Positions 31,352 to 46,396 of a stretch of 64,000 bases of DNA are shown piece after piece (positions within the stretch are counted from its first letter, which is position 1; every line of letters begins with the position of its first letter). The position numbers and the translations under genes were made by a program. Source of the stretch: Thermoanaerobaculia bacterium (GTDB taxonomy: Bacteria; Acidobacteriota; Thermoanaerobaculia; Multivoradales; J023); the NCBI GenBank assembly GCA_028066595.1, contig JALCBJ010000030.1, forward strand, positions 8,580 to 72,579, written 5' to 3'. The notes below the pieces were generated by a model that worked only from the letters and a program-made list of their open reading frames with translations, was not told where the DNA came from and did not search any database.

Positions 31352-34009
31352 TCATTCCCACCGCAAGATCCGGCTCGGGTCGACCCGGGCCGCCTTGCGG
31401 GCGGGGATGGCAGCAGCTATCAGTGCCGACGCGGCCACCAGAAGTGCCACGCCGACGAGCACCGACGGATCGGTGGCCGATACTCCGAAGAAGAGTCGCT
31501 CTGCGGCGTGGCCGGCAAGAATCGCGCCGCTCAGTCCGACGACGACCGCGGCGGCCGTCCAGGTGGCGACCCGGCGGACGAAGAGCCCTACGACTTCCAG
31601 CGGCCGAGCTCCCAACGCCATGCGCACGCCGACTTCTTGGCGACTCTCCGTGACCGAAAGCATGGTGACGCCATAGATGCCGACGATGGAAAGCAGGAAA
31701 GCCAGTGCGCCGAAGGCTGTGACGACTCGGGAAAGGAACTGCCGATCGGCCAGCGTGCCGCGGACGATGCTGCGGATGGGGTGGACGTCGTATACGGGAA
31801 TCGTCGGGTCGATCGCCGCTACGGATCCCCGGAGCTCGGGCGCCAGTGCCGCGAGATCGCGCTGTGTGGCCAGAACCAAGCTCATCCGACGCTCGGGCTC
31901 TTGGGCGTGGGGAAAGTAGATGGCCTGTCGCGGCGCCGTACCCGGATCCACGTGGTGCACGGTCTCCACCACACCTACGATGCGGCGTTCGCGCGCCGGA
32001 TCGCCCCAGTTGATGTGTAGACCTTTGCCCAGGGCGTCGCCGTTGGGCCAGAGATCGTCGGCGAGGTCGCGGCTGACGATGACGCTACCCACGGTGTCTT
32101 CGCCGTGATCGCTGGAGTCGAAGTTCCGCCCCTTCACCAGCTCGATACCCATGGCAGCGAAGTAGGCACCCTCCACCACGCGGATATCGGCGACCGGCCA
32201 GTCCGCCGCATCCGGTTCGGGGCGGTCCGTGGCGGCGAACGAGGTGCCGGCGCCCAGTCCTGCCATCGGGACCGCCGTGACGGCACCGACCCTGTCGACA
32301 CCTGGCAGGGCTCCGACATCAGCCATCAGCTGATCGAGAAAGTTCGACATGCGTTCGGGGCCGTAGTCGCGGGGCGGCGAGACGCTGAAGGCCACGACGC
32401 CGTCGGTGTCGAAGCCTGGGTCCACCGAGAGCAGTCGATGAATCGTCTGCAGCATGAGTGCGGCGCCCACGAGTAGGACGAGGGCCAGCGCGGTCTGGGC
32501 GAAGACCATCCCGGCACGTGCGCGGTGGCGGCCTCGTCCGCCGCCGAAATCGCGCGTGCTGCCGGGCCGCGCCGCGGCCCGGAGTCCGGAAAGACCGGTG
32601 AGCAGGGCCAGGACAATGATCAGCATGCTGCCGGCGGCCAGGGCCGCAACCCAAACGGCGCCTTCGGTCGTCGACGCCGCTGCCGCCAGATGTTCGGGCA
32701 GGCTCGCAGCGGAGAGTCGTCGTAGCCCCAGGGCCAAGACCCAGCCTGCGCCGGCGGCCAGACCCGCCAGCAATAGGCCTTCGGCGAAGAATTGGCGCGC
32801 GAGGCGTGTCCGGCCGGCCCCCAGTGCACGGCGGAGACCCAGCTCTTCGGCGCGGGCCAGGTTGCGCGACAACAAAAGGCTGGAGGCGTTGATGCAGACG
32901 ACCAACAGCAGCAGCAAGACCGCACCGCCCAGTGCCGTGAGCGGCAGCTCCAGCGGTTCCCGCAAGACCTCTGCCAGCGGGATGGCGTGGCCGATCCAGC
33001 CGGCGTTGAAATCGGGCATGGCCTCTCGTTGGCGATCCATGATGCCCGACGCCTCTGCGTGGGCTTCCTCCGGAGCAGAACCGTCCGCCAGTCGGGCTAC
33101 GATCATCAACCACCGGCCTCGCTGGGTCGCCCACTCTTCGGTCACCGGCAAGGGTCGCCAAAGGTCGGCGGCGTCGCCATACGGTGCTCGGGCGGGGCCC
33201 AGGTCGAGAGCGGCTCCCGGGGGCATGACTCCGATGACCTCATACGGAATGCCGTCGATTTTCAGCTTCTCTCCCTCGACGTCTCGGCGGCCGCCGAAGT
33301 GCTGCCGCCAGAGGCGGTGGCTGATCACCGCGGGTGCAGGATCTTCCAGAAGCCCATCCCCCGGTCGAAAGGTGCGCCCGACGGCTGGCGGAATCCCCAG
33401 CACCTCGAAGTACTCTTCCGTGACCCAGCGTGCACCGACGCGCATGGGCGGAACACCTTCAGCGTTCAGGCTCGCGGGGACCGTGATGAAGCCGGCCAGT
33501 TGGTCCAGCGTCTTCGCGCCGTCGCGGAACGCGACGAAGTTCGCCGGACCTACCACGTTCAGGCCCTTGCCGCGTGTCGTCTGCTCCTCCCAGAGCGTGA
33601 CGAGGCGATCCGGGTCGGAGAAGGGTAGCTTCTTCCAGAAAGCATGGTGCCAGATACCCGCCATCGTCAGACTGGTGCCGAGTCCCAACGCGAGCATGCC
33701 GACCAGGAGTATTGCCAGACCCGGTCGCTTGGCGAAGCGGCGGAGGGCGAATCGAAGATCCTGGCGGACCTCGTCGAGCCAGGCCACGAGGCGCCATCGA
33801 CGGTTCCGGATACCGGCCTCGCGGAGGCATTCGGCGGCATGTCGATCGAGATCGCCGAATCGTTCGAGGGCCTTGCGCCGTGCGTCCCGCTGGGACATAC
33901 CTTGGTCGACGTATTCCTTCGTTCGGAGTTCCAGATGAGTCGCCAGCTCTTCATGAACCTCCGACCCCGCCGGACGTTGCCACAGCGGAGATTTGTTGGA
34001 GCGTTTCAC
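31352..34009 (-). CDS. ADOP-type ABC transporter permease (duplicated FtsX/MacB-like), PadR-associated
   Basis: ORF 31352..34282, trimmed to the GTG at 34009 that overlaps the PadR stop (GTGA). The N-terminal soluble helix region matches ADOP N-termini (...EYVDQGMSQRDARRKALERFGDLDRHAAECLREAG...) and is followed by two FtsX 4-TM modules. Confidence 0.8.
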   Translation of the reverse strand: MKRSNKSPLWQRPAGSEVHEELATHLELRTKEYVDQGMSQRDARRKALERFGDLDRHAAECLREAGIRNRRWRLVAWLDEVRQDLRFALRRFAKRPGLAILLVGMLALGLGTSLTMAGIWHHAFWKKLPFSDPDRLVTLWEEQTTRGKGLNVVGPANFVAFRDGAKTLDQLAGFITVPASLNAEGVPPMRVGARWVTEEYFEVLGIPPAVGRTFRPGDGLLEDPAPAVISHRLWRQHFGGRRDVEGEKLKIDGIPYEVIGVMPPGAALDLGPARAPYGDAADLWRPLPVTEEWATQRGRWLMIVARLADGSAPEEAHAEASGIMDRQREAMPDFNAGWIGHAIPLAEVLREPLELPLTALGGAVLLLLLVVCINASSLLLSRNLARAEELGLRRALGAGRTRLARQFFAEGLLLAGLAAGAGWVLALGLRRLSAASLPEHLAAAASTTEGAVWVAALAAGSMLIIVLALLTGLSGLRAAARPGSTRDFGGGRGRHRARAGMVFAQTALALVLLVGAALMLQTIHRLLSVDPGFDTDGVVAFSVSPPRDYGPERMSNFLDQLMADVGALPGVDRVGAVTAVPMAGLGAGTSFAATDRPEPDAADWPVADIRVVEGAYFAAMGIELVKGRNFDSSDHGEDTVGSVIVSRDLADDLWPNGDALGKGLHINWGDPARERRIVGVVETVHHVDPGTAPRQAIYFPHAQEPERRMSLVLATQRDLAALAPELRGSVAAIDPTIPVYDVHPIRSIVRGTLADRQFLSRVVTAFGALAFLLSIVGIYGVTMLSVTESRQEVGVRMALGARPLEVVGLFVRRVATWTAAAVVVGLSGAILAGHAAERLFFGVSATDPSVLVGVALLVAASALIAAAIPARKAARVDPSRILRWE

Positions 34010-34353
34010 GACGCCGGCTCCGTCGACAAGACGCGCGAAACGATCTGGGCGAACCGCGTCCAATCTTCGGTTTCCCTCTGCAACTGCGCACGTCCGAACG
34101 GTGTCAAGCGATAGTGCTTGGCACGGCGTCCCAACTCCGAGACGCCCCATTCCGACTCCACATACCCTCGTTTCTCGAGTCGGTAGAGAGCAGGGTAGAG
34201 GGAACCCTCTTCGATACGAAGCATGTCGTCGCTGACGTCCTCCAGCCAACGGGCGATGCCATAGCCATGGCGAGGTCCCCACGCCAGAGTCTTGAGGATC
34301 AGCGTGTCGAGAGTGCCGCGCAGCAGGTCGGAGCTAGAGGTGTCTTTCGCCAT
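34006..34353 (-). CDS. PadR family transcriptional regulator
   Basis: 115 aa with the winged-HTH PadR signature LILKTLAWGPRHGYGIARWL...GSLYPALYRLEKRGYVESEW. Confidence 0.85.
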   Translation of the reverse strand: MAKDTSSSDLLRGTLDTLILKTLAWGPRHGYGIARWLEDVSDDMLRIEEGSLYPALYRLEKRGYVESEWGVSELGRRAKHYRLTPFGRAQLQRETEDWTRFAQIVSRVLSTEPAS

Positions 34354-34703: not shown

Positions 34704-35327
34704 TCAAGAAGCAGACGGGTTGGTTTCGTCCGGCAGGAAGTCCTCCTCCAGGTCCACTTCCCGCGACATCATGATCAGATTGTGGGTGCGGCCTTCGCGA
34801 TCGATGACCCAGTCGTGGAGCATGGCCTCGGGAATGAAGCCCAAGCTGTGAAACAGGGTCTGAGCGCTCCGCTGCGTGCTGGTCATCTGAGCCACCAGTT
34901 TCTGCAGATCCTGACGTTTCGCCAGTTCTAGAATCTGGCGCGCGAGGCGGCCTCCGAGGCCGTGGCCACGCCCGTCGGACGCCACCAGGAGCAGGATCTC
35001 CCCAAGGTGACGGGTCCACAGGCTCTCCGAGAGTTGCAAGCTGGAGTAGCCCAGGATTCTCTCTGCTCCGTCACTGGAGCTGGGCTCCACCGCAACGACC
35101 GTCTGCGTCTGACCTGACTCCAGGTCCCGAAGCCATTGGTCGACGACGTGTTCCTGCGTGATGTCAGTGCGCAGGAAGAGAAGATCTTCTTCCGGCAACG
35201 CGCGCGCAAAGCGCAAGACAGCCCTGCGGTCATCCGCTGTCATGGAACGAAGCAACGCGGGTCGCCCGTCCAGATCCACGGTTTCCGGGAGATTCGGATC
35301 TTCCACGATGAGGGTCACGGTCAGCAA
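34704..35327 (-). CDS. GNAT family N-acetyltransferase
   Basis: 207 aa with motif A (VASDGRGHGLGGRLARQILE). Confidence 0.75.
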   Translation of the reverse strand: MLTVTLIVEDPNLPETVDLDGRPALLRSMTADDRRAVLRFARALPEEDLLFLRTDITQEHVVDQWLRDLESGQTQTVVAVEPSSSDGAERILGYSSLQLSESLWTRHLGEILLLVASDGRGHGLGGRLARQILELAKRQDLQKLVAQMTSTQRSAQTLFHSLGFIPEAMLHDWVIDREGRTHNLIMMSREVDLEEDFLPDETNPSAS

Positions 35328-35353: not shown

Positions 35354-35716
35354 TCAGTACGGCATCTCCTCGTCGGACAGCCCAAAATGATGCCCGAGCT
35401 CGTGAACCACGGTGTCCCGGATTTCTAGGATCAGCTCTCGGCGGCTACGGCAGTAACGACACAACGGCCCGCGAAAGATCGATACGTGGTCGGGGAGGCC
35501 GAAGTAGCCCACCTCCCGTTCGGTCTGGGGCACACCGGTATACAGACCCAGCAACTCTTCACCGGGATCGAAGCCCATCTCCTCGAGAATGGCCGCGTCC
35601 GGCTCGTCCGCGACCACCACTGCCACGTTCTCGAGTAGCTCGGCGAATTGCTCTGGCAGCTGGTCGAGCGCCCTCTCGACCAAGGCCTCGAATTCCTCCG
35701 GCGGAACCCTCAACAT
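35354..35716 (-). CDS. Zincin-like metallopeptidase (HExxH; DUF1025-type)
   Basis: HELGHHFG zinc-binding motif. ORF 35354..35767; probable start MLRVPPEEFEAL... at 35716. Divergent from the REC-LpxC gene. Confidence 0.6.
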   Translation of the reverse strand: MLRVPPEEFEALVERALDQLPEQFAELLENVAVVVADEPDAAILEEMGFDPGEELLGLYTGVPQTEREVGYFGLPDHVSIFRGPLCRYCRSRRELILEIRDTVVHELGHHFGLSDEEMPY

Positions 35717-35790
35717 CTCGTCTCCCGGGGGAACGTGGCGTAGCCCTGGCGGGGGCTGGGGAGCCACCTGGGTGCTGTATCATCTCGCCC

Positions 35791-37098
35791 ATGTCCGCCA
35801 GCGTTCTCATCATCGACGACGAGCCCGGCGTCATCGGCGCCGTCGCCGACGTATTGGTCGACGAAGGCTACCAAACGCTGACGGCCCGAAGCGGCGCGAC
35901 CGGGATGGAGCTCTTCCGGAGCGAACGTCCCGATGTCGTGTTTCTCGACATCTGGCTGCCGGACCGAGATGGTCTCGAGGTGCTGCACGCGCTACGCGAA
36001 GCCGATCCGACCGTCGCGGTGGTGATGATCTCCGGACACGGTACGGTGTCTACTGCGGTCAAGGCTATTCGCATGGGTGCCTATGAGTATCTTGAAAAGC
36101 CTCTTTCCTATGAGCAGGTCACGCAGGCGATGGAGGGAGCCCTGGACTTTCGCAGGCGCGGCGGCGGCGACTCGCAAGCGACCGATTCCGGACGCGACCG
36201 AGGCGAGGTGGCCGCCGAGATTCAGCCTCCACCGGTGCTGCCGATCGTCAAGAACGGTCGCAAGCACCAACGCACCATCAAGCACTCGACCGTGATTTAC
36301 GGACTGGGGCTCCATTCGGGTACGCGGACCGCCATGGTCCTCCAACCCTTGCCCCCCAACTCCGGCATCCAATTCCTCACACTGCCAGCCGAGAAGGTCA
36401 TTTCGGCGCATGTGACGAGCGTCGCGGAGACGGACTACGCCACCACGCTGTCTCGGGAGGGCGAGAGCGTCAAGACCGTGGAGCACCTGCTTTCGGCGCT
36501 CCACGCCTACGGCATCACCAACCTGCTGATCAAGGTCCATGGCGAGATTCCGGTCCTCGATGGATCGGCCCTCGAGTTCTGCCGCGCGCTTGACGAGTCG
36601 GGGGTAGAGAGCCAGCGCGTGGTCCGCCGTGAGCTGGTCATCGATCGGGTCTACGAGATCGGGGGCGATGAGAAGAGGCCCGACAAGAGGCTCACCATCG
36701 AGCCTTACGATGGCTTTGCCGTTACCTATCAGTTGAGTTACCCTCCGCCGATCGGAGACCAATACTGTGAGTTCGAGCTCGACTCCGTCGAGGGCTACAA
36801 GGCCGAGATCGCGCCGGCACGTACGTTCGGTTTCGTGAAGGACGTGAAGATGATCAACGAGCTGGGCCTGGGCTCTGGCGGCCGTCTCGACAACCACATT
36901 CTGGTGGGTGAGGACGACATCATCAACACCGAGCTACGGTTCGACAACGAGTTCGTGCGCCACAAAATCCTCGACATCATCGGCGATCTGTACTTGAACG
37001 GTTTTCCGATTCGCGGCAGGGTTCGAGCGCACCTCACCGGCCACCGCGACAACATCGCCATCGTGCGGGAGATCTTCGAGGCCAACTCACCGCAATAG
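35791..37098 (+). CDS. lpxC: Response-regulator receiver domain fused to UDP-3-O-acyl-N-acetylglucosamine deacetylase (REC-LpxC)
   Basis: Start MSASVLIIDDEP at 35791 inside longer ORF 35158..37098. REC residues are intact: DD acidic pocket (IIDDE), phospho-acceptor Asp (VVFLDIWLPD), the conserved Ser/Thr (VVMISGHG) and Lys (LEKPL). LpxC body aligns with E. coli LpxC: GLGLHSG, VEHLLSALHAYGITN (E78/H79), ARTFGFV (T191/F192), HKILDIIGDLYL (H238/D242), TGHRDN (H265). Confidence 0.85.
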   Translation: MSASVLIIDDEPGVIGAVADVLVDEGYQTLTARSGATGMELFRSERPDVVFLDIWLPDRDGLEVLHALREADPTVAVVMISGHGTVSTAVKAIRMGAYEYLEKPLSYEQVTQAMEGALDFRRRGGGDSQATDSGRDRGEVAAEIQPPPVLPIVKNGRKHQRTIKHSTVIYGLGLHSGTRTAMVLQPLPPNSGIQFLTLPAEKVISAHVTSVAETDYATTLSREGESVKTVEHLLSALHAYGITNLLIKVHGEIPVLDGSALEFCRALDESGVESQRVVRRELVIDRVYEIGGDEKRPDKRLTIEPYDGFAVTYQLSYPPPIGDQYCEFELDSVEGYKAEIAPARTFGFVKDVKMINELGLGSGGRLDNHILVGEDDIINTELRFDNEFVRHKILDIIGDLYLNGFPIRGRVRAHLTGHRDNIAIVREIFEANSPQ

Positions 37099-37296: not shown

Positions 37297-40200
37297 GTGC
37301 TGACGATCTACACCTCCAACGGGCTCGATACGCTGGTGGAACGCCTTTCGGCGGAGGTGTCGTCGGCTCCGCTGCCTCCCCTGGAGCAGGAGATCGTCGT
37401 GGTCCAGAGCGAGGGGATGCAGCGTTGGTCGACGCTGGAGCTCGCCCGGCGTCAGGGCATCGCGGCGAGTCTCGCGACTCCGTTTCCCCGGCCGTTCTGC
37501 CGCTGGCTGGCGCTTCGGGTGCTGGATGCGGTGGACCTGCCGTTGTCGGAACCCATTTCGCGGAACGACGACACGGTCTTCGGACGCGAGCTCTTGTCCT
37601 GGCGCTTGTTCGGCCTGCTGGGCGATCTAGCGGAGGATGAGGCCCTGGGCGGATCTGCTCCCGCCGACTACTTGGCCGACGACCCAGACCAACGCAAGCG
37701 ATTCCAGCTCTCCCAGCGGTTGGGCTGGCTCTTCGACGACTATCAGCTGTTCCGTCCAGATCTGCTCGATGGGTGGGAACGTGACGGAGGGACTGGCGAA
37801 ACTGCGCTGGAGACCGAAACATGGCAGGCCGAGCTGTGGCGGCGCCTGGTCCGGTCAGCGGATGGTGAGGAGCCGTTCTCGCGTCGCCTGATGCAGCTGA
37901 CGCGCCATCTGGGAACCGCGAAGGAAGAGCCGGCCGGCCTTCCGAAGCGCCTGTGGGTGCTCGGTGTCTCGACGTTGCCGCCGGCCTTTGTGCGGGTGCT
38001 CGTCGCCATCTCTCGATGGCGGCCCGTAGGTATCTTCTTCGTCTCGCCGACCTACCACTACTGGGCCGATCTTCGGTCCGATCGTGAGCAAGCATCACTT
38101 CGGCGGCGAATGCGCCTCGACACTGCCCGTGGAGACCTCCCACATCTGGAGCGCGGGAATGCTCTGCTGGCAGCGCTGGGTCGCCAAGGCCGTGAGTTCT
38201 TCGAGATCTTGCAACGAGCCGATCCCTCGGGATCGGCTTGGCACGAGCTCGATTTTCACGATCCGGCCGAGGTTGCGCGACGGGAATCCGGTGGTTCCGA
38301 CGACTCGGGTGAGCGAGTACCCACGCTGGCTCGTTTGCAGAGCGACATCCTGCACCTCGTCGATCGCGGCGACCCGGAGGGGCCCGGGCCGGTGGCGTGG
38401 CCGGCCGACGCCCATCGTGACGAGAGTCTGGAAATCCATGCTTGCCACGCGCCCACGCGTGAGATGGAGGTGTTGAAAGACCGCTTGCTACACGCCTTCG
38501 CTTCCGACGAGACCTTGCGTCCCTCCGACGTGCTGGTCATGGTGCCCGACATCGAGCTCTACGGTCCGTACATTCAGGCGGTCTTCGGTGCCCGTGCCGG
38601 AGAAGGGCCGGAGATCCCTTTCAGCATCGCCGATCGTCGCGCTGGTCGGGAGCAGCCGCCGTCGGAAGCGATTCTCGACGTCCTCGATCTGGTGAATTCG
38701 CGCGCAACGGTACGGCAGGTTCTCGACTTGCTGGATACCCCGGCCGTCGCTCGCCGATTTGCGATCACGTCGATCGAGCTTCCGATCTTGCGCAGAATGA
38801 CGGAAGAGACGCGCATCCGCTGGGGCTTTGATGCCGAGCATCGGCGGCGCATCTTCGATGTGCCGCTGGAACAGCAGAATACCTGGCGGGCCGGCCTCGA
38901 TCGGTTGATCATGGGTTACGCGACCGGAGATACAGGAGAGCTCGTCGACACTCCGGACGGCTCTGTGCTGCCATTTTCTGGCGACACGGCGGGTGCGGCA
39001 GAGCTGTTGGGACGATTCGCGGGGTACGTCGAGACGTTGTCTTCTGTGCTCGAATCCCTACGTCATCGACGCAGCTTCGGCGAATGGGCCGACGAGCTGC
39101 TACTCGTGCTGGAGCGGCTCTTCTCGCCGCAGTCGGAAGACGAGGAGCGAGGCCTGCAAGCGATCCGGGACGCGGCGGACGAGCTTCGGCAACTGTCCGA
39201 GGTCGTAGGTCGTCGATCGCCGGGCCGAAGCCCGACCGAGAGCTCCGCCGAACCGCACGTCGATCCCGAGGCCGACGAGCCGATTCATCTCCAGGTCGTG
39301 CGGGAGCATCTGGGTGCGGTTCTTTCGACCGCGGGATTCGCCAGCGGTTTCCTGGCCGGAAAAGTGACGTTCTGTGCTCTACGTCCGATGCGCACCATTC
39401 CTTTCGGGGTGGTAGCGATCGGCGGGCTCGACGAAGGCGCCTTTCCACGTCGAGACCGCAGGCAGGAGCTTGATTTGATGGCACGGGCTCGGCGTCGCGG
39501 AGATCGTTCGATCCGTGACGATGACCGGTATCTGTTCCTGGAAACCCTGTTAGCGGCGCGTAGTCGGCTGATTCTCAGCTACGTTGGCTTCTCGCCGCAA
39601 GACGCGACCCCCCGTGAGCCGTCCGCGGTTCTATCGGAGCTACTGGACCAAGTGGACCGGACGTTTGTGTGTGCCGACGGCCGGCCTGCCCGCGACAAGG
39701 TGCTGGTGGCCCATCCTCTACAACCCTGGAGCTGGCGCTACTTCGCCGGCGGAGAGTCGGTTCTCAGGAGCTACGATGCGGTCCAGCTCCGAGCGGCGGA
39801 GGCCCTGCGAGCCGGTGGTGGCGACTCTTCACCCTTCGCCGCTTCCGCGCTGCCCCGAGGCGGAGAATCCGAGGTCGATCTGACGGTCGATGAGCTGGTC
39901 CGATTCTGGACGCATCCGATTCGGGAGTTCTGTCGTCGGCTGGGCATCGTGCTGGAGTCCGAGGAGGACGGCTCAGACGATGCCGAACCGTTCACGGTAA
40001 CAGGACTCGACGGTTTCGCGATACGGCAGTGGCTCCTGGAGGGCAGGCTCGAGGCTCGGCGAACTGGCGAAGAGGATCACAAGGTCCGCGAAGCGTCCGA
40101 GCGCGCCTTTCTGCGGGCCTGGGGAGCGCTCCCGCCCGGGAGACTCGGCGACGCAGCCTGGAACGAGCTGAGTCGGCGAGTTGACGAGCTACTGATTCGG

Positions 40201-40794
40201 ATACCGGACGAGTCCGAGCTCCAGCCGGCATCGATCGACGTGCGAGGTGACATCGGGTCGGCTGAAACTTCCTGGCGCCTCGGCGGTCGCATCGGCCAGC
40301 GTACGGTCCGGGGCCTCCTGCACTATCGCTGCGCCGGGGTTCGGGCGGCCGATCGCCTGCGCACCTGGATCGAGCACCTGGCGGTAACCGCGTCGACCGG
40401 TAGCCGGGAATCCGCGCGTCTACTCGGCGAATCTCGGGAACTGGTGTTCGATCCGCCCACCGATGCGATAGCGCTGCTCGGCTCCTTGGTCGACGGATAC
40501 CTCCACGGCCTACGTCGCCCGCTACCCCTGACTGCGGAGACGTCGCTGGCCTGGGCCGAGCAGGCTCGTGCTCTTTCCGATCCTCGACGGCGCCTGTCGC
40601 GATCGCCCCGAGAGGCCGCACGCCAGGTGTTCGAGGGACGCCACCGGATCGGCGGCGCTCTCGCGCCCGAGTCTCGCGATCCATACGTCCGCCTATGCTT
40701 CCGCGATCTCGATCTGCTCGATCACCCCGAGGCAGGCAGGTGGGCCGAGCGACTGTGGCGACCCGTGTTCGACCACCACCGGGAAGTAGCGTGA
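37297..40794 (+). CDS. recC: Exodeoxyribonuclease V gamma subunit RecC
   Basis: N-terminus (GTG) MLTIYTSNGLDTLVERL...VVVQSEGMQRWSTLELARRQGIAASL parallels E. coli RecC MLRVYHSNRLDVL...ILVQSTGMAQWL. 1165 aa; RDDDRYLFLETLL motif present. Confidence 0.85.
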   Translation: MLTIYTSNGLDTLVERLSAEVSSAPLPPLEQEIVVVQSEGMQRWSTLELARRQGIAASLATPFPRPFCRWLALRVLDAVDLPLSEPISRNDDTVFGRELLSWRLFGLLGDLAEDEALGGSAPADYLADDPDQRKRFQLSQRLGWLFDDYQLFRPDLLDGWERDGGTGETALETETWQAELWRRLVRSADGEEPFSRRLMQLTRHLGTAKEEPAGLPKRLWVLGVSTLPPAFVRVLVAISRWRPVGIFFVSPTYHYWADLRSDREQASLRRRMRLDTARGDLPHLERGNALLAALGRQGREFFEILQRADPSGSAWHELDFHDPAEVARRESGGSDDSGERVPTLARLQSDILHLVDRGDPEGPGPVAWPADAHRDESLEIHACHAPTREMEVLKDRLLHAFASDETLRPSDVLVMVPDIELYGPYIQAVFGARAGEGPEIPFSIADRRAGREQPPSEAILDVLDLVNSRATVRQVLDLLDTPAVARRFAITSIELPILRRMTEETRIRWGFDAEHRRRIFDVPLEQQNTWRAGLDRLIMGYATGDTGELVDTPDGSVLPFSGDTAGAAELLGRFAGYVETLSSVLESLRHRRSFGEWADELLLVLERLFSPQSEDEERGLQAIRDAADELRQLSEVVGRRSPGRSPTESSAEPHVDPEADEPIHLQVVREHLGAVLSTAGFASGFLAGKVTFCALRPMRTIPFGVVAIGGLDEGAFPRRDRRQELDLMARARRRGDRSIRDDDRYLFLETLLAARSRLILSYVGFSPQDATPREPSAVLSELLDQVDRTFVCADGRPARDKVLVAHPLQPWSWRYFAGGESVLRSYDAVQLRAAEALRAGGGDSSPFAASALPRGGESEVDLTVDELVRFWTHPIREFCRRLGIVLESEEDGSDDAEPFTVTGLDGFAIRQWLLEGRLEARRTGEEDHKVREASERAFLRAWGALPPGRLGDAAWNELSRRVDELLIRIPDESELQPASIDVRGDIGSAETSWRLGGRIGQRTVRGLLHYRCAGVRAADRLRTWIEHLAVTASTGSRESARLLGESRELVFDPPTDAIALLGSLVDGYLHGLRRPLPLTAETSLAWAEQARALSDPRRRLSRSPREAARQVFEGRHRIGGALAPESRDPYVRLCFRDLDLLDHPEAGRWAERLWRPVFDHHREVA

Positions 40795-43700
40795 CGACAG
40801 CTCCACTAGATCTTCTCGAAACACCGTTGGAGGGTGGTACCACGGTGATCGAAGCCAGCGCCGGAACAGGCAAGACCTACTGTCTGACGGGTCTGGTCCT
40901 ACGGCTTCTCTTGGAGCGACGAGTCGAATCGATCGGCCAGATTCTCGTCGTCACCTTTACCAACGCCGCGACGGACGAGCTGGTGGCGCGTCTCCGGAGC
41001 GCGTTGCGCGACGCCCATAGAGCGATGCTCGATAGCTCGCCCGCGGCAGATCCGTTCGTCCGAGGTCTCGTCGAACAGCATCGGGGGGCGGAGGGCGCCG
41101 ACGTGCTGCGCGATGCCCTCCTCGACCTGGACGGCATGCTCGTCTCCACGATCCACGGCTTCTGCAGGCGGGTGCTGGAAGAGAGCGCCTTCGAGAGCGG
41201 CTCGGCGTTCGATCCCGAGCTCGTGGAGGACGATGATCTGCTGCGTCTCGACGCGGCGCGGGACGCCTGGCGACGCCTGCTGTCGGAAGACGAGACAGGC
41301 CAGGTGGCACAGCTCGCCGCAGCGAAAGGGCTGACGCCTGAACGGTTCGCCGCCGAGGTGCGCGAGACGAGTCGGCATCCCGAGATCCAGATCGTGCCCG
41401 AGCCCCGGGACGTCGCCGAGGCCGCGGCGGAGCTGTCGACGCGACGTGCACAGCTCGCCGCGACGTGGCGCGGACCCAGGATGCGGCTCTTCTTGTCCCG
41501 ACGCCGATGGAAGACAGGTGCCGACCTGTCCGACGCCGGGGCGCAACGTGCGGCCGTGGCGGCAGTGGACGACTTCTGCCGGGGAACTCTGGGTCCCACC
41601 GCCATCGAAGAGCTGACCACACACCGGGTTGCGGAGCAGCTTCGCGAGCCCGCGGACGAGCTGACACGTGAGCCGGCCCTGGCGGTCATCGATGCGGTGG
41701 CCGAGTCCACCTGGCAGCTGCAGCACGCCGTCTGTTGCCGCATGGTGGCCGACGTGTCGGTGGCTCTGGCCCAGGCCAAGGAGCGGGCGGGGATCTTGGC
41801 TTTCGACGACCTCGTGCATCGACTCGATCGCGCGCTGGGCGATCCGTTGCATGGGCCGCGTCTGCGCCGCTCGGTTCGTCAGACGCTGCGAGTTGCCTTG
41901 GTCGACGAGTTCCAAGACACGGATCTCGTTCAATATCGGATCTTCCGCCGACTGTTCGACGACGGACCGCTCTACCTGGTGGGAGACCCGAAGCAAGCGA
42001 TCTACAGATTCCGTGGCGCCGATGTCTTCGCCTACCTCGAAGCCAAGCGTGCGGCCGACCGCATCTACACGCTGGATCGCAATTGGCGGAGCTCCGGAGA
42101 TCTGGTGCGCGCGGTCAATGCGTTGTTCGAAGTGGAGCGGCCCTTCGTTTACCGGGACATCCCGTACCCAGGAGTCCAGGCGGCGGCGAAGGTGGCTGCA
42201 CGGGCGCTTTCGTCGGGTGGGGCCCCTGTGGATGCTGAGGCGCCGCTGCAGGTGCACTGGCTCGGCGAAGAGGCGTCGGCGCGACGAGCGGAAGCCCGAT
42301 TGGTGGGCTGGACCTCCACGGAGGTCAGCCGGATGCTGGCGGCCGACCTCCGTTTGACGGACACCGAAGACCAGGAAGGCCGGCCGCTTCGTCCTGCCGA
42401 TCTTGCCGTTCTCGTGCGCACCAACGATCAGGCCCTCGCGGTGCAGGATGGGCTGCGGCGGGCCGGCATCCCGGCCGTGGTGAGCCGTTCCGGCGACATC
42501 TTCCATTCCGAAGAGGTGGAAGAGCTCGAGCGCGTCCTGCGGGCCATCCTCGATCCGTCCGACCGTGTCCGGCTGAAGACGGCTTGCGCGACCCGTTTGT
42601 GGGGAATGGACGCTGCGGAGCTCTTTCGTTTGTCTCAGGATTCGGAGGAACTCGAAGACGCCGATCGCTGGCAACGGTTGTTCGACACGTTCGAGGAGCT
42701 GCGCGAGGTCTGGCGCGAGGAGGGCTTCGTCTCCATGGCGCGACATTGGCTCGACTCCCACGGCGTCCGCGAGCGTTTGCTGAAGCTCGACCAAGGTGAA
42801 CGCAGACTCACGAATCTGCTGCACGGTGTCGAGGTCCTGGCACGCGCCATCCACGACGAGAGGCGGACACCCGCCGGTCTCGTGGCATGGTTGGCCGCCG
42901 AGCGTCGGCGCGCTTCCCACGACCGGGATGCCGCCGAGTTGCGGCTGGAGAGCGACGCGGAGGCGGTCGAGATTTCGACCGTCCACAAAGCCAAGGGATT
43001 GGAATACGAAGTGGTGCTCTGCCCATTTCTCTGGCAGGCGCGATCCGTCGACGCACCGCCGGTAACGGTACATGTCTCCTCTGTAGGCCTGCTACGTGAG
43101 CACGGTTCCTGGCCGCCTGAGCAAGGTGTCGTCGGCTCCAGGGTGGATCGGCATCTGGCCGCGGCAGAAGCCGAACGGTTGGCGGAAGACCTGAGGCTTG
43201 TGTACGTTGCGTTGACCCGAGCGAGGAGGCGCTGCCTGGTGGCGTGGGGTGCCATCGGCCGGGGCGCCGCGTCGTCGGCTTCTGGCCTGGCTTACTTGCT
43301 TCACCGTCGCCAGCAGGTGGTCGATTCGGACCTCGACGCCGCTGTCTGGTCGGCGAATGCGCTGGACGAAGCGCGTCGACGTGTGAGCGATTGGTTCAGC
43401 GACTTGACCGGATGGGCCGAACACCACGCGAGCCTCGTCGAGATCCGATCGATCGAGACCGAGGTCGTACCAGGAGCCTGGCAGAACGGGTCTGAGGTGC
43501 AGTCGAAGCTGCAGGCCAGAGAGCTGCCAATGTCGGTGCGTCGGCAGCTCAAGCCTTGGCAGATCTCCAGCTTCTCAAGCCTCAGTCGCGCGGCCCACGG
43601 CGAGTCGAGCAGGGAGCTGCCGGACCGTGCCGATCCCTCGAGGGTGCAGCCACCTGTCGGCAGCGGGAGCAGCAGTGCGCCACAGGGGATCTTCGCCTTC

Positions 43701-44552
43701 GCTCGCGGGCCCCGTGCCGGTCAATGTCTGCACGACATCCTCGAGAACCTCGACTTTGCCATGGCGGCAGACCCCCAGGCCCATGACCAGGTCGCAGATC
43801 TGGTGCGACGACAGCTGCAGCGCTTCGGCCTAGCGGAGCAGAGCGTGCACGATGACGGCTCCGGGCCATGGGTTCCGGAACACGTCGTCGTCGACCTGCT
43901 GCGCCGGTTGGTGCAGGTGGCTCTGCCGGACGGCCCGCGCCTTCGGTCGGTGGAGCGAGGAGGCCGGCTTGCGGAATGGCAGTTCTGGGCGCCGCTGAGA
44001 CCGGTGGCGGCTGCAGACTTGGCAGATTGTTTCCGCAGCGGGTCGCGGGAATCCTGGGTTTCCGACTACGCCGATCGGCTCGCGACGTTGTCTCCCCGGG
44101 AGGTGGAAGGCTTCCTGACTGGCTACGTCGACTTGGTGTTCGAATGGCAGGGTCGGTTCTACGTCGTCGACTGGAAATCCAACCATCTGGGCAACTCCGT
44201 CGCGGACTACGACAGCGGAGCTCTGATGCGTGCCATGGCGGAGCATCACTACTTCCTGCAGTACCACCTCTATGTGGTGGCTCTTCTGCGCTACCTGCGC
44301 TCACGAGGCGACTCCCGCGACTACGACGAGGTGCTCGGGGCGGTCTACTACGTGTTTCTGCGCGGAATCGCCCAAGCAGACGAGATCCCGGCGGCGGGGC
44401 AGCTGGGACTCTTTGCGCAGGCCCAGCCAGATTGCGACGCCTCGATGCACGTTTCGGCGGAGACGGGCATCTTCTGCGATCGACCGTCCCGTGAGTTGAT
44501 CGAGGAACTCGACGCGCTCCTCTTCGGCCCGGCGCGAAAGACGACCTCGTGA
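40791..44552 (+). CDS. recB: Exodeoxyribonuclease V beta subunit RecB (UvrD-like helicase + PD-(D/E)xK nuclease)
   Basis: GTG start overlaps the recC stop (GTGA). N-terminus VTTAPLDLLETPLEGGTTVIEASAGTGKTY matches RecB (Walker A). Helicase motifs (LVDEFQDTD, YLVGDPKQAIYRFRGA) and C-terminal nuclease motifs (GYVDLVFEWQGRFYVVDWKSN) present. Confidence 0.85.
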   Translation: MTTAPLDLLETPLEGGTTVIEASAGTGKTYCLTGLVLRLLLERRVESIGQILVVTFTNAATDELVARLRSALRDAHRAMLDSSPAADPFVRGLVEQHRGAEGADVLRDALLDLDGMLVSTIHGFCRRVLEESAFESGSAFDPELVEDDDLLRLDAARDAWRRLLSEDETGQVAQLAAAKGLTPERFAAEVRETSRHPEIQIVPEPRDVAEAAAELSTRRAQLAATWRGPRMRLFLSRRRWKTGADLSDAGAQRAAVAAVDDFCRGTLGPTAIEELTTHRVAEQLREPADELTREPALAVIDAVAESTWQLQHAVCCRMVADVSVALAQAKERAGILAFDDLVHRLDRALGDPLHGPRLRRSVRQTLRVALVDEFQDTDLVQYRIFRRLFDDGPLYLVGDPKQAIYRFRGADVFAYLEAKRAADRIYTLDRNWRSSGDLVRAVNALFEVERPFVYRDIPYPGVQAAAKVAARALSSGGAPVDAEAPLQVHWLGEEASARRAEARLVGWTSTEVSRMLAADLRLTDTEDQEGRPLRPADLAVLVRTNDQALAVQDGLRRAGIPAVVSRSGDIFHSEEVEELERVLRAILDPSDRVRLKTACATRLWGMDAAELFRLSQDSEELEDADRWQRLFDTFEELREVWREEGFVSMARHWLDSHGVRERLLKLDQGERRLTNLLHGVEVLARAIHDERRTPAGLVAWLAAERRRASHDRDAAELRLESDAEAVEISTVHKAKGLEYEVVLCPFLWQARSVDAPPVTVHVSSVGLLREHGSWPPEQGVVGSRVDRHLAAAEAERLAEDLRLVYVALTRARRRCLVAWGAIGRGAASSASGLAYLLHRRQQVVDSDLDAAVWSANALDEARRRVSDWFSDLTGWAEHHASLVEIRSIETEVVPGAWQNGSEVQSKLQARELPMSVRRQLKPWQISSFSSLSRAAHGESSRELPDRADPSRVQPPVGSGSSSAPQGIFAFARGPRAGQCLHDILENLDFAMAADPQAHDQVADLVRRQLQRFGLAEQSVHDDGSGPWVPEHVVVDLLRRLVQVALPDGPRLRSVERGGRLAEWQFWAPLRPVAAADLADCFRSGSRESWVSDYADRLATLSPREVEGFLTGYVDLVFEWQGRFYVVDWKSNHLGNSVADYDSGALMRAMAEHHYFLQYHLYVVALLRYLRSRGDSRDYDEVLGAVYYVFLRGIAQADEIPAAGQLGLFAQAQPDCDASMHVSAETGIFCDRPSRELIEELDALLFGPARKTTS

Positions 44553-46396
44553 CCTCCCGTCTTCCCACCTTGCCCTCGGGGCTCTCCGACGTCGATGTCG
44601 CCCTGGCCCGACTTGTCCATCGACTGTGGCCCGGGGACGAGTTGCTTCCACGGACAGCGGCTTTGGTCAGCCACGAGAGAGGACTCGGACACGTCTGTGT
44701 GCATCTGAGCGAGCAGGCGGGCCTGTTGGCCGAGGCGCGCGATGAGTTGCAGCCGGAGGCCGAAGCCAGGTCGTTCCGTTGGCCTGAAGTTGCGGAGTGG
44801 CGACGCCGGTTGTTGGCCTCCGGTGTGGCCGTTACCGGGAACTCCGAGCTGCTGGCACCGCTCGTCCTCGACGAGGCCGACCGGCTCTATTTGACTCGCT
44901 ACTACTGGGCGGAAAAAGGGCTGGCGCAGGGTCTGGCGGCCTGCGCGAAGGAAGCGAGCGACGTGCCCCCGGACCCGTCGAGCCGTGCTCTTCGGACTTC
45001 CCTCTTCGCCCCAGACGACCCCCGCGTTACCGATCAGGCACGGGCCGCGGAGGCTGCGCTGCGTGGTGGCCTGACTCTGATCAGCGGTGGACCTGGGACG
45101 GGCAAGACCACCACCGTGACCCGCATTCTCCTGCTCCTGTTGTCCTCGCGACCCGACCTTCGGATCGCTCTCGCAGCACCGACAGGCAAGGCCTCGGCTC
45201 GGCTCGGTGAGTCGATCGCCGCCAGCCTCGATGATCTGACACATCAGCCGGAGCTGGAAGCCACGCTGTCCCAGGCGGCTCCCGAGGCACTCGACCGGAT
45301 CCCGCGGACAGCGCGGACTCTGCACCGCCTGCTCGGCTATCGTCCACGCTACGACCGATTTATTCACCGATCGGAGAATCCGCTACCGTGTGACCTGGTC
45401 GTCGTGGACGAGGCATCGATGGTGGATCTACTGTTGATGTCGGCTCTCGTAGATGCATTGCCCGACGGCGCGTCTCTGCTGCTGCTGGGTGATCGCGATC
45501 AGTTGACCAGTGTGGAGGCGGGCTTCGTGTTCGGTGACCTCGCGGAGGCAGCCAAGAGCTCTGGTGAAGAGCGCTGCGATCCGGATGTCGAGAGCATCGG
45601 CTCGTTGGTGGAGCTTCGGCATAGCTGGCGTTTCGCCCGGCGTATCGGTATCGGTGATCTGGCCGAAGCGGTGCGAAGAGGGGATGCCACCGAAGCGTTG
45701 CGGGTCCTGGACGACAGCGCGCGAGACGACGTATCGCTTTCGCGCCACCTCGGGACTGACGCAATCCTGGAGCCTTTGAAGTCGCCGATCGAAGAGCTCT
45801 TGGCAGCCGAGGACCCTTCGACGGCGTTGTCGAAGCTCTCCACCTTCCGCATCCTATGCGCAACCCGGGTCGGCCCCTGGGGCGTCGAGCGCATGAATCG
45901 GGTCGTCGAAGGCTGGCTCGCGGAGCGTGGCCATCCCACCGAGGAACGCTTCTATCCTTGCCGCCCGATCCTGGTCCAGGAAAACGACTACCAGAATGGC
46001 CTGTTCAATGGCGACCTAGGCCTCTGCTGGCACCAGGGCGGGCGTACATGGGCCATCTTTCCTGGGCCTGACCCTGCTTCGCCTCGCAGGCTTCCACTCG
46101 CGAAGCTGCCGCGTCACGACACAGCATGGGCCATGACCGTGCACAAGAGTCAGGGTTCGGAGTTCGATCGAGTCCTGCTCGTCCTCCCTGAGGATGGCGC
46201 GTCGGCAGGCTCCGTCTTGAGTCGTGAGCTGGTCTACACCGGCCTGACCCGGGCCAAGCGCCGTGTCGACCTGGTGGCTACACCAGAGGTCCTTCGAGAG
46301 GCCCTGACGCGCAGCGGTCGACGACGGTCCGGTCTGGTGGATGCTCTGCGGCTCGAAGCCGGTTCGAGGCGGGGTGCCGGAAGCACACCGGACTGA
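44549..46396 (+). CDS. recD: Exodeoxyribonuclease V alpha subunit RecD
   Basis: GTG start overlaps the recB stop (GTGA). Walker A LISGGPGTGKTTTV; DEASMVD (Walker B); TVHKSQGSEFDRVLLV (motif VI). Confidence 0.85.
   Translation: MTSRLPTLPSGLSDVDVALARLVHRLWPGDELLPRTAALVSHERGLGHVCVHLSEQAGLLAEARDELQPEAEARSFRWPEVAEWRRRLLASGVAVTGNSELLAPLVLDEADRLYLTRYYWAEKGLAQGLAACAKEASDVPPDPSSRALRTSLFAPDDPRVTDQARAAEAALRGGLTLISGGPGTGKTTTVTRILLLLLSSRPDLRIALAAPTGKASARLGESIAASLDDLTHQPELEATLSQAAPEALDRIPRTARTLHRLLGYRPRYDRFIHRSENPLPCDLVVVDEASMVDLLLMSALVDALPDGASLLLLGDRDQLTSVEAGFVFGDLAEAAKSSGEERCDPDVESIGSLVELRHSWRFARRIGIGDLAEAVRRGDATEALRVLDDSARDDVSLSRHLGTDAILEPLKSPIEELLAAEDPSTALSKLSTFRILCATRVGPWGVERMNRVVEGWLAERGHPTEERFYPCRPILVQENDYQNGLFNGDLGLCWHQGGRTWAIFPGPDPASPRRLPLAKLPRHDTAWAMTVHKSQGSEFDRVLLVLPEDGASAGSVLSRELVYTGLTRAKRRVDLVATPEVLREALTRSGRRRSGLVDALRLEAGSRRGAGSTPD

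What the first reader, a model, noticed from the sequence alone, without database searches (positions are those of the whole stretch)
35791..37098. Receiver (REC) domain fused in frame to a catalytically intact LpxC: apparent two-component control of the committed step of lipid A synthesis
One ORF carries an N-terminal CheY-like receiver domain fused to a complete LpxC deacetylase. All REC phospho-signalling residues are conserved (DD pocket, acceptor Asp in FLDIWLPD, the Ser/Thr, and Lys in EKPL). The LpxC part retains the Zn ligands and catalytic residues that align to E. coli E78/H79/T191/H238/D242/H265. In model bacteria LpxC is controlled by regulated proteolysis (FtsH/LapB), not by phosphorylation. 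A phospho-switch placed directly on the enzyme would be a different regulatory logic for outer-membrane lipid A flux. No cognate histidine kinase is in the window, so the partner is unidentified.
Basis: partly seen in the sequence, partly recalled or inferred. Interest (0 to 1): 0.85.

Follow-up and report, generated by a model that had tools for sequence, protein, structure and literature searches.

The report
Receiver domain fused to LpxC enzyme
One gene joins an intact two-component phosphorylation receiver of the NtrX type to an intact LpxC, the enzyme that commits cells to lipid A synthesis; the fusion is conserved across a whole class of Acidobacteriota and belongs to a larger NtrX-LpxC fusion family I found no paper on, which suggests direct kinase control of outer-membrane synthesis.

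Summary
Window 35791-37098 (+) is one uninterrupted 435-codon ORF with a full receiver (REC) domain (PF00072, E 5e-28) and a full LpxC domain (PF03331, E 9e-82; TIGR00325 above its curated cutoff). All phospho-signalling and catalytic residues are present.

It is not an assembly artefact. At least 274 species-level genomes carry it. The best 80, including complete chromosomes and mostly labelled Thermoanaerobaculia, match it full length.

New here: the closest relatives outside this clade are ~700-740 aa proteins with the order REC, degenerate sigma54-type AAA+ (no GAFTGA), HTH_8, LpxC. These are NtrX response regulators fused to LpxC, found in Tectomicrobia, Nitrospinae and Desulfobacterota. 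Short REC-LpxC forms are nested among them, consistent with repeated loss of AAA+/HTH. In two relatives, one long and one short, an NtrY-type histidine kinase gene lies immediately upstream. The window REC best matches NtrX.

Best reading: an orphan, NtrX-derived receiver places LpxC under direct phospho-control, probably from an NtrY-like kinase. That step is inferred, not shown. I could not test whether the genome has a second lpxC.

No paper describing the fusion was found. NtrYX is already known to affect lpxC transcript levels in alphaproteobacteria. Verdict: new variant of a known kind, interest about 0.72.

The parts
35791..37098 (+). Complete CDS of the REC-LpxC fusion protein (435 aa plus TAG stop)
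   Evidence: N-terminus aligned with 120 homologues
35791..36150 (+). Receiver (REC) domain, aa 1-120, NtrX-type, with a (beta-alpha)5 fold in the model
   Evidence: PF00072 E 4.8e-28. Best NCBIfam match is NtrX NF051870 at 111.9 bits. Best PDB matches are Brucella NtrX 4d6x and 5m7n. Secondary structure.
35815..35820 (+). D9-D10 acidic pocket (Mg2+ site)
   Evidence: Invariant in 121 family members. Present in 272 and 266 of 277 fusions of all architectures. Codons checked.
35947..35949 (+). D53, predicted phospho-acceptor aspartate (motif FLDIW, shared with Brucella NtrX)
   Evidence: Invariant in the family. Present in 271 of 277 fusions. Alignment to NtrX.
36031..36102 (+). Switch and output face: S81, helix alpha4 (aa 86-94), Y100, K103-P104
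   Evidence: S81, K103 and P104 are invariant and Y100 is at least 90% conserved. Most alpha4 residues (T88, A89, V90, K91, A92, M95) are at least 90% conserved, while alpha1 and alpha2 vary. S/T in 277, Y/F in 275 and K in 276 of 277 fusions.
36151..36261 (+). Inter-domain linker, aa 121-157. Variable sequence but constrained length, with a conserved C-terminal part (consensus 'EIxPPPxLPIV')
   Evidence: Mean pairwise identity 39%, length 37-48 aa. R137 and P147 at least 90% conserved. pLDDT 76-80 then 95, with a short helix at 137-143. No residual similarity to the AAA+/HTH of long forms.
36262..37095 (+). LpxC deacetylase domain, aa 158-435
   Evidence: PF03331 E 8.5e-82. TIGR00325 above cutoff. 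The model superposes on solved LpxC structures with TM 0.81-0.93 normalised to the target.
36481..36486 (+). E231 (general base) and H232 (Zn ligand); E. coli E78/H79
   Evidence: present in 276 of 277 fusions
36823..36825 (+). T345 (oxyanion-stabilising Thr; E. coli T191)
   Evidence: present in 275 of 277 fusions
36961..36987 (+). H391 (Zn), K392, D395 (Zn) and D399; E. coli H238/K239/D242/D246
   Evidence: present in 275-276 of 277 fusions
37042..37044 (+). H418 (catalytic His; E. coli H265). Only 17 residues follow it, so there is no E. coli-type C-terminal tail
   Evidence: The E. coli tail length (40 residues after H265) is from my own knowledge.
35717..35790 (.). Probable divergent intergenic region between the REC-LpxC gene and the Zincin_1 gene, if the Zincin_1 start is the internal ATG
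   Evidence: The Zincin_1 homologue in L081 is 119 aa. The internal Met is at aa 18, coordinate 35716. No consensus promoter was found here.

Best explanation
The gene encodes a real, vertically conserved fusion of an NtrX-type receiver domain to a catalytically competent LpxC. It is the short form of a multi-phylum NtrX::LpxC fusion family (REC-AAA+-HTH_8-LpxC), from which the AAA+ and DNA-binding modules appear to have been lost repeatedly.

Proposed mechanism: a histidine kinase encoded elsewhere in the genome, most likely NtrY-like, phosphorylates D53. The S81/Y100 switch then remodels the conserved alpha4-beta5-alpha5 face of REC. That changes how REC packs against the LpxC domain, or how it dimerises, and so raises or lowers deacetylase output. 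This would work like CheB, where a receiver gates a fused hydrolase. Lipid A flux would then be set after translation by a two-component signal, rather than by FtsH/LapB proteolysis.

Shown: the architecture, the intact residues, conservation, the family relationship, NtrY adjacency in two relatives, and the predicted compact fold.
Inferred: phosphorylation itself, the identity of the kinase in this genome, the direction of the effect, and that catalysis rather than stability is the controlled property.
For: Architecture and residues:
- Domains and catalytic and phospho residues are present.

Recurrence:
- All 120 best database hits carry both domains.
- 274 species-level genomes encode a relative. 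The best 80 match full length, and they include complete chromosomes.

Constraint on REC:
- Mean pairwise identity is 70% for REC, 77% for LpxC and 39% for the linker.
- The D-D-D-S/T-K set is kept in 96-100% of 277 fusions.
- The alpha4/beta5 output face is the most conserved REC surface.

NtrX origin:
- The best NCBIfam and PDB matches of the REC are NtrX.
- The best representative hits are REC-Sigma54_activat-AAA_lid-HTH_8-LpxC proteins, which JGI names NtrX.
- 0 of 129 long forms have a GAFTGA-like motif, as in NtrX (bioRxiv 10.1101/2023.06.06.543975).
- In a neighbour-joining tree, most fusion-linked LpxC domains fall in one group apart from most stand-alone LpxC. The window domain is 45-52% identical to long-form LpxC and 35-42% to the nearest stand-alone LpxC.
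- Short forms P0332 and P0383 are 75-77% identical to long form P0121 and sit inside its clade. P0332 shares the long forms' synteny.

Kinase:
- An NtrY-type kinase (NtrY_N-HAMP-PAS-HisKA-HATPase_c) ends 2 nt before the long fusion in L084. Another lies directly upstream of short form P0332.

Structure:
- AlphaFold2 gives pTM 0.91 for the window protein and 0.85 for P0332, even though the P0332 linker is disordered. This implies a confidently placed REC/LpxC interface.

Biological precedent:
- Loss of NtrYX raises lpxC mRNA 8.8-fold and raises LPS in R. sphaeroides, with no NtrX site upstream of lpxC (PMC7240162). See also PMC12444477.
Against: - No kinase lies in the window or consistently near the gene in Thermoanaerobaculia. 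Kinase-like ORFs occur within 10 kb in only 6 of 83 loci, and the five scanned with Pfam have different architectures.
- The Spirochaetota short forms are also orphans.
- The Thermoanaerobaculia linker keeps no detectable remnant of AAA+ or HTH. In the midpoint-rooted NJ tree some short-form clades branch basally. Descent of this particular clade from a long form is therefore likely but not proven.
- pTM is only a proxy. Model coordinates and PAE were not available, so the interface could not be mapped to the active site.
- Nothing here shows phosphorylation or any change in activity.
- A second, stand-alone lpxC in the same genome could not be excluded.
Confidence: 0.6

Rival explanations
1. 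REC controls the amount or location of LpxC rather than its catalysis. Phosphorylation would expose or hide a degron or adaptor surface, as with RssB or CpdR, or would steer the enzyme to the membrane. In these lineages this would replace the FtsH/LapB route.
For: - The LpxC domain lacks the long E. coli-type C-terminal tail: about 17 residues follow the catalytic His.
- LpxC is controlled through protein level in E. coli, and possibly by Lon or by LapB-dependent localisation elsewhere (PMC12444477).
- The REC also scores against the RssB model, at 84.5 bits.
- Lon and ClpXP genes lie near one long form. This is weak evidence.
Against: - The compact REC/LpxC packing predicted in two clades fits intramolecular control more simply.
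- No protease or adaptor gene is consistently linked to the fusion.
Confidence: 0.2
2. The REC is a leftover of the NtrX fusion. It now serves only as a structural or dimerisation module and no longer needs phosphorylation.
For: - The gene is an orphan in Thermoanaerobaculia and Spirochaetota.
- Some NtrX functions in alphaproteobacteria are reported for the unphosphorylated form (my own knowledge, not checked here).
Against: - A pseudo-receiver would be expected to lose the acidic pocket, the acceptor Asp, the Ser/Thr or the Lys.
- Here these residues are invariant in 121 family members and kept in 96-100% of 277 fusions across phyla.
- REC is nearly as conserved as the enzyme.
Confidence: 0.1
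3. The fusion is an accessory, condition-specific LpxC paralogue, and a stand-alone housekeeping lpxC lies elsewhere in the genome. Phospho-control would then tune extra lipid A flux rather than the essential step. This is compatible with the best explanation but lowers its importance.
For: - The fusion-linked LpxC domains form their own subfamily with clade-specific residues.
- No other lpx gene lies nearby.
Against: - The domain passes the TIGR00325 equivalog cutoff.
- Within the class it is conserved at 77% mean pairwise identity, with every catalytic residue invariant.
- It occurs once per genome in the 80 loci returned.
- It is found in a small 2.68 Mb Spirochaetota genome.
- No second LpxC-like ORF was seen in the window.
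Confidence: 0.25
4. Artefact: a missed stop or frameshift, or a chimeric assembly, joins two separate genes.
For: None found.
Against: - The ORF is continuous.
- The same architecture, with a length-constrained linker, recurs in hundreds of independent assemblies, including complete chromosomes.
Confidence: 0.01

Closest known systems
LpxC (UDP-3-O-acyl-GlcNAc deacetylase) of E. coli, P. aeruginosa and Aquifex aeolicus
   Same: - Full-length PF03331 and TIGR00325 match.
- All Zn ligands and catalytic residues are present.
- The predicted fold superposes on solved structures (TM 0.81-0.93, about 35% identity).
   Different: [quoted passage not shown]
- It lacks the long C-terminal tail used for FtsH degradation in E. 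coli.
- It belongs to a distinct LpxC subfamily with its own conserved residues, for example V168, L187, H238, K248, C264, R365, L371 and T416.
NtrX, the response regulator of the NtrY/NtrX system (Brucella 4d6x/5m7n, Rhodobacter, Caulobacter)
   Same: - The REC is the best match to NtrX in NCBIfam and PDB and shares the FLDIW and ISGHG...EKP motifs.
- Long relatives have the full NtrX order REC-AAA+ (no GAFTGA)-HTH_8.
- In one long relative (L084) and one short relative (P0332), an NtrY-type kinase gene lies directly upstream.
- NtrYX affects lpxC expression and LPS level in alphaproteobacteria (PMC7240162, PMC12444477).
   Different: - The window protein has no AAA+ and no HTH_8, so it cannot act as a transcription factor. 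Its only output module is an enzyme.
- No ntrY gene lies nearby.
- It scores 112 bits against the NtrX whole-protein cutoff of 600.
CheB methylesterase (REC fused to a hydrolase)
   Same: - Same logic: an N-terminal receiver, a flexible linker and a C-terminal hydrolase.
- In CheB the unphosphorylated REC blocks the active site and phosphorylation relieves the block (my own knowledge).
- A compact REC/enzyme packing is also predicted here.
   Different: - The catalytic domains are unrelated.
- The direction and mechanism of control are untested here.
- The REC is NtrC/NtrX-type, not CheB-type.
Bifunctional LpxC-FabZ (NF009667), the known LpxC fusion
   Same: LpxC is joined to a second domain on one polypeptide.
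   Different: - There the partner is C-terminal and enzymatic (a dehydratase), not a signalling domain.
- The window protein scores 199 bits against a cutoff of 465 and has no FabZ domain.
DVU2934, an NtrC-family regulator that binds upstream of lpxC in Desulfovibrio vulgaris
   Same: An NtrC-family two-component regulator dedicated to lpxC, with an orthologue operon next to lpxC in Syntrophobacter (PMC3333781).
   Different: - Its control is transcriptional and the proteins are separate.
- Orthology to the NtrX part of the fusions was not tested.

Membership tests
LpxC (PF03331 / TIGR00325) | Full-length profile match above the curated cutoffs | tested here: met
   PF03331 at 275 bits against 27, model positions 1-267 of 268. 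TIGR00325 equivalog at 234.4 against 187.25.
LpxC (PF03331 / TIGR00325) | Zn ligands His79/His238/Asp242 and catalytic Glu78/His265/Thr191/Lys239/Asp246 (E. coli numbering) | tested here: met
   H232/H391/D395 and E231/H418/T345/K392/D399. They are invariant in 121 relatives and kept in at least 275 of 277 fusions.
LpxC (PF03331 / TIGR00325) | LpxC two-domain beta-alpha-alpha-beta fold | tested here: met
   The AlphaFold2 model (pLDDT 93.5) matches P. aeruginosa and A. aeolicus LpxC with TM 0.83-0.93 normalised to the target and rmsd 2.1-2.8 A.
LpxC (PF03331 / TIGR00325) | Deacetylase activity on UDP-3-O-acyl-GlcNAc; sole or essential copy in the genome | not testable with these tools
   This needs an enzyme assay.
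Response regulator receiver (PF00072) | Profile match and (beta-alpha)5 fold | tested here: met
   PF00072 at 98 bits against 30.2. Five strand-helix pairs, E4-8/H12-24 through E99-102/H107-122.
Response regulator receiver (PF00072) | Phospho-signalling quintet: two acidic residues, the acceptor Asp, Ser/Thr and Lys, plus the aromatic switch residue | tested here: met
   D9, D10, D53, S81, K103 and Y100.
Response regulator receiver (PF00072) | Cognate histidine kinase and phosphotransfer | tested here: inconclusive
   No kinase lies in the window or consistently near Thermoanaerobaculia homologues. An NtrY-type kinase is adjacent in two relatives from other clades. Phosphotransfer itself is not testable here.
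NtrX (NF051870) | NtrX-type receiver domain | tested here: met
   NtrX is the best NCBIfam match to the REC (111.9 bits, model positions 2-120). Brucella NtrX is the best PDB match (94 bits).
NtrX (NF051870) | Central AAA+ domain (sigma54-interaction type, lacking GAFTGA) and C-terminal HTH_8 | tested here: not met
   Both are absent from the window protein, and its linker shows no remnant of them. Both are present in the ~700-aa relatives. The window protein is therefore a relative of NtrX::LpxC fusions, not an NtrX.
NtrX (NF051870) | Whole-protein score above the curated cutoff | tested here: not met
   111.9 bits against a cutoff of 600.
LpxC-FabZ bifunctional enzyme (NF009667) | C-terminal FabZ dehydratase domain; score above cutoff | tested here: not met
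   199.1 bits against a cutoff of 465. There is no FabZ/hotdog domain and the protein ends 17 residues after the catalytic His.

The most novel reading that the evidence does not exclude
In Thermoanaerobaculia, and in the other lineages with these fusions, the fused protein may be the cell's only LpxC. Its activity would be switched directly by phosphorylation from an NtrY-type sensor kinase. [quoted passage not shown] By the Rosetta-stone argument, envelope and LPS homeostasis through LpxC would be an ancient core function of the poorly understood NtrY/NtrX system.
Probability: 0.35. Interest if true: 0.85.

Novelty: new variant of a known kind. Interest (0 to 1): 0.72.

Why it matters
LpxC is the flux-controlling and usually essential enzyme of lipid A synthesis, and it is a major antibiotic target. 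Its regulation is understood mainly in Enterobacteria (FtsH/LapB proteolysis) and Pseudomonas (MurA binding). A 2025 review of lipid A regulation mentions no receiver fusion.

A receiver domain wired directly to LpxC, conserved across a whole class and embedded in a multi-phylum NtrX::LpxC family, offers three things:
- A third regulatory logic that can be tested in vitro with one purified protein plus acetyl phosphate or BeF3-.
- An independent Rosetta-stone argument that the NtrY/NtrX system, whose physiological role is debated, is functionally tied to LpxC. This would help explain why loss of NtrYX raises lpxC expression and LPS in alphaproteobacteria without an NtrX site at lpxC.
- A natural series of long, intermediate and short forms for studying how a transcription factor is reduced to a direct enzyme switch.

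Tried and rejected
- **Misassembly or frameshift:** rejected, because the architecture recurs in hundreds of assemblies.
- **A kinase in the window or next to homologues:** none in the window. A motif scan found kinase-like ORFs in only 6 of 83 loci. Pfam on five of them showed unrelated architectures. Only L032 (HAMP-PAS-HisKA-HATPase, 25% identity to an NtrY) is vaguely NtrY-like. No conserved partner emerged.
- **Conserved neighbourhood:** only a divergent Zincin_1 and a GNAT gene recur, in about 15 of 83 loci. No lpx gene recurs.
- **Remnant of AAA+/HTH_8 in the linker:** a profile search against the long forms found nothing. Derivation of this clade from a long form rests on REC affinity and on analogy with recent deletions elsewhere.
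- **Promoter and terminator scan:** nothing useful upstream or downstream.
- **AFDB fold search**, which would have given organism names: the library was unavailable. The PDB fold search returned only stand-alone LpxC among the 50 matches listed.
- **Mapping the REC/LpxC interface:** the model coordinates are not exposed, so I used pTM and family-specific conservation only.
- **Literature:** six searches for a described REC-LpxC or NtrX-LpxC fusion found none.
Full report
**1. Observation**

Window 35791-37098 (+) translates without interruption into 435 residues followed by TAG.
- Pfam places a complete receiver domain (PF00072, aa 5-114, E 4.8e-28) and a complete LpxC domain (PF03331, aa 160-429, model positions 1-267 of 268, E 8.5e-82) on this one polypeptide.
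- The NCBIfam equivalog model for LpxC (TIGR00325) scores 234 bits against a curated cutoff of 187.
- One search lists a longer ORF starting at 35158.
- The receiver has D9-D10, the acceptor D53 (FLDIW), S81, the aromatic switch Y100 and K103-P104.
- The LpxC part has E231/H232, T345, H391/K392/D395/D399 and H418. These align to P. aeruginosa E77/H78, T190, H237/K238/D241/D245 and H264, which are E. coli E78/H79, T191, H238/K239/D242/D246 and H265.

**2. Not an artefact, and not rare**

- All 120 best hits among 5.8 billion protein clusters carry both Pfam domains. They are 427-460 aa long and 62-89% identical. Where named, they come from Thermoanaerobaculia, Acidobacteriota or Holophagales MAGs, and they are annotated only as LpxC.
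- A scan of one genome per GTDB species found 274 genomes encoding a relative. The best 80 all match full length at 60-72% identity. They include complete chromosomes: OY970373.1, OZ243123.1, OY969112.1 and OY970330.1, and OZ375331.1.
- Within this family the receiver is nearly as conserved as the enzyme, at 70% against 77% mean pairwise identity. The linker is variable (39%) but constrained in length to 37-48 aa.
- The phospho-signalling residues and the catalytic residues are invariant.
- Most residues of helix alpha4, together with beta5 and the start of alpha5, are at least 90% conserved. This is the usual output face of receivers. Alpha1 and alpha2 vary.

**3. Surroundings**

About 40 window ORFs were scanned with Pfam. 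There is no HisKA/HATPase_c protein and no other lpx gene.
- Upstream, on the opposite strand, lie Zincin_1, a GNAT and PadR. Downstream is recC-recB-recD.
- Across 83 homologous loci only the Zincin_1 and GNAT genes recur, in about 15 loci.
- Kinase-like ORFs lie within 10 kb in only 6 loci, at inconsistent positions. The five scanned with Pfam have unrelated architectures.

In this class the protein is therefore an orphan response regulator.

**4. What it is related to**

An exhaustive HMMER search of 1.84 billion representative proteins changed the picture.
- Besides about 47 further REC-LpxC clusters (35-48% identity), the best-scoring relatives are 650-740 aa proteins.
- Their Pfam architecture is Response_reg, Sigma54_activat, AAA_lid_14, HTH_8, LpxC. 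There are intermediates of the form REC-HTH_8-LpxC at 491 and 505 aa.
- JGI annotates many of them as 'NtrX'. Named sources are Entotheonellaceae/Tectomicrobia, Nitrospinae and Thermodesulfobacteriota/Desulfobacterota. One short form is from a 2.68 Mb Spirochaetota chromosome.
- None of 129 long forms has a GAFTGA-like motif, and Walker A is retained in 116. This is the NtrX pattern (bioRxiv 10.1101/2023.06.06.543975).
- The window's receiver is itself NtrX-like. NtrX is its best NCBIfam model (112 bits; next best 88). Brucella NtrX (4d6x, 5m7n) is its best solved-structure match and shares the FLDIW and ISGHG...EKP motifs.
- In a neighbour-joining tree of LpxC domains, most fusion-linked domains (short, intermediate and long) fall in one group apart from most stand-alone LpxC. 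Three basal short-form representatives (P0184, P0190, P0194) branch just outside that group, and four stand-alone-length representatives (P0160, P0172, P0186, P0189) sit inside it. The window domain is 45-52% identical to long-form domains and 35-42% to the nearest stand-alone LpxC. Clade-specific residues are listed.
- Several short forms are nested among long forms. P0332 and P0383 are 75-77% identical to long form P0121. Compared by eye in the sequences printed, P0332 differs from P0121 by a clean deletion of the AAA+/HTH region, leaving a short remnant of the last HTH helix.
- Across all 277 fusions the receiver quintet is kept in 96-100% and the LpxC catalytic set in at least 99%.

**5. 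The kinase**

- In L084 (a long form on a 2.15 Mb contig) the gene order is DUF4390, then an NtrY-type kinase (NtrY_N-HAMP-PAS-HisKA-HATPase_c), then the fusion. The kinase gene ends 2 nt before the fusion gene.
- Short form P0332 also lies directly behind an NtrY-type kinase, in the synteny MutS-NtrY-[REC-LpxC]-LolA-RseP-RimP-NusA.
- Two long forms share that synteny without the kinase.
- Two other long forms and the Spirochaetota short forms have no adjacent kinase.

The partner is thus NtrY in at least some lineages. For the window's clade an NtrY-like kinase encoded elsewhere is the leading candidate, but I could not test this.

**6. Mechanism**

- AlphaFold2 with the family alignment gives pLDDT 93.5 and pTM 0.91. 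No segment falls below pLDDT 50, and the conserved C-terminal part of the linker is ordered.
- The LpxC part superposes on solved LpxC structures with TM 0.81-0.93.
- A second model, of the distant short form P0332, used an alignment made mostly of long forms. It still gives pTM 0.85 although its linker is disordered.
- By my estimate, two freely tethered domains of 120 and 275 residues would give a pTM near 0.6. On that basis a defined REC/LpxC packing is predicted in two clades.
- Thermoanaerobaculia-specific invariant residues cluster in the Insert II helix (M354, E357, L358, G361) and next to the catalytic His (R419, D420). This is a lead only.
- The LpxC domain ends 17 residues after the catalytic His. 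It therefore lacks the long tail that carries the FtsH degradation signal in E. coli (PMC3333781 reference 22; PMC12444477).

My best explanation (confidence 0.6) is direct post-translational control, analogous to CheB. Phosphorylation of D53 remodels the alpha4-beta5-alpha5 face and changes LpxC output, either through the intramolecular interface or through dimerisation.

Rivals:
- Control of stability or localisation (0.2).
- A structural module that no longer depends on phosphorylation (0.1). This is disfavoured by the invariant phospho-residues.
- An accessory paralogue alongside a stand-alone lpxC (0.25). This is orthogonal to the mechanism and untestable here.
- An artefact (below 0.01).

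**7. Comparison with what is known**

- Response regulators with enzymatic outputs are a known kind; CheB and the GGDEF, EAL and HD-GYP regulators are examples.
- Two-component influence on lpxC is known at the transcript level. NtrYX represses lpxC in R. sphaeroides, where loss of NtrYX gives 8.8-fold more mRNA and more LPS with no NtrX site at lpxC (PMC7240162). It also does so in C. crescentus, where ChvGI activates lpxC (PMC12444477). DVU2934 binds upstream of lpxC in D. vulgaris (PMC3333781).
- Six literature searches found no description of a REC-LpxC or NtrX-LpxC fusion. A 2025 review of lipid A regulation contains neither 'receiver' nor 'fusion'.
- The sequences are present in public databases under automatic names only.

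I rate it a new variant of a known kind. The window protein is a member of LpxC and of the receiver family. It is not a member of NtrX, because AAA+ and HTH are absent and it scores 112 bits against a cutoff of 600. It is a reduced relative of NtrX::LpxC fusions.

**8. Limits**

- I could not check for a second lpxC or for ntrY in the same genomes.
- I could not map the predicted interface.
- I could not root the domain tree reliably.
- The linker shows no remnant of AAA+/HTH. Descent of this clade from a long form is likely, given the NtrX-type REC and the documented recent deletions elsewhere, but it is not proven.
- All functional statements beyond sequence and predicted structure are inference.

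Noticed in passing
window 18299-22538 (+): A PlsC/OlsA-like acyltransferase (PF01553) overlaps by 14 nt with a FeeM/GNAT-type N-acyl amino acid synthase (OlsB-like). An MMPL/RND transporter follows. Together they look like an aminolipid (ornithine-lipid-type) synthesis and export cluster.
   Followed up: no
L084 2075-13403; L085, L086 and the P0332 contig: Four of the five long-form and P0332 neighbourhoods sampled lie among envelope genes. LolA and RseP (Peptidase_M50) lie downstream; they follow the fusion directly in L085, L086 and the P0332 contig, but are separated from it by purM, purN and a rhomboid gene in L084. A LapA-domain gene lies upstream in L084. An ArnT-like PMT_2 glycosyltransferase and UppS lie near P0296 (L088).
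   Followed up: partly
window 35354-35767 (-) and 34704-35327 (-): A Zincin_1 metallopeptidase-like gene and a GNAT gene are transcribed divergently from the REC-LpxC gene. This pair recurs in about 15 of 83 homologous loci. The Zincin_1 start is probably the internal ATG at 35716, which leaves a 74-bp intergenic region.
   Followed up: partly
window 36262-37095 (LpxC domain): Fusion-clade LpxC domains differ from stand-alone LpxC at conserved positions in or near the acyl-chain passage. R365 replaces P. aeruginosa S210, L371 replaces V216 and M354 replaces Y199. This may reflect a different acyl-chain preference or a regulatory surface.
   Followed up: partly
window 10496-13210 (-) and 31352-34353 (-): Two large MacB_PCD+FtsX ('ADOP'-type) permeases. 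The second is preceded by a PadR regulator. This pairing is typical of Acidobacteriota (my own knowledge).
   Followed up: no
window 9095-10372 (-), 13202-14281 (+), 54660-56147 (-): Other signalling proteins lie in the window: a membrane GGDEF protein, an FHA-GGDEF protein and a DUF4388 protein. None is a histidine kinase.
   Followed up: no
window 2104-5478 (-) and 59537-60841 (+): A 1124-aa predicted membrane protein and a 434-aa protein have no Pfam match at E < 0.01.
   Followed up: no
window 37297-46396 (+), 48686-51376 (-), 53842-54522 (-): DNA-repair genes are concentrated downstream of the fusion gene: recC-recB-recD directly after it, then a family-B DNA polymerase and an SRAP (YedK-like) peptidase. 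In the two Spirochaetota loci the fusion is followed by a recN-like SMC gene.
   Followed up: no
proteins P0157, P0158, P0161, P0162 (representative search): Some relatives appear as AAA+-(HTH)-LpxC with no REC. They may be N-terminally truncated gene calls on short contigs, or real REC-less variants. This was not resolved.
   Followed up: no
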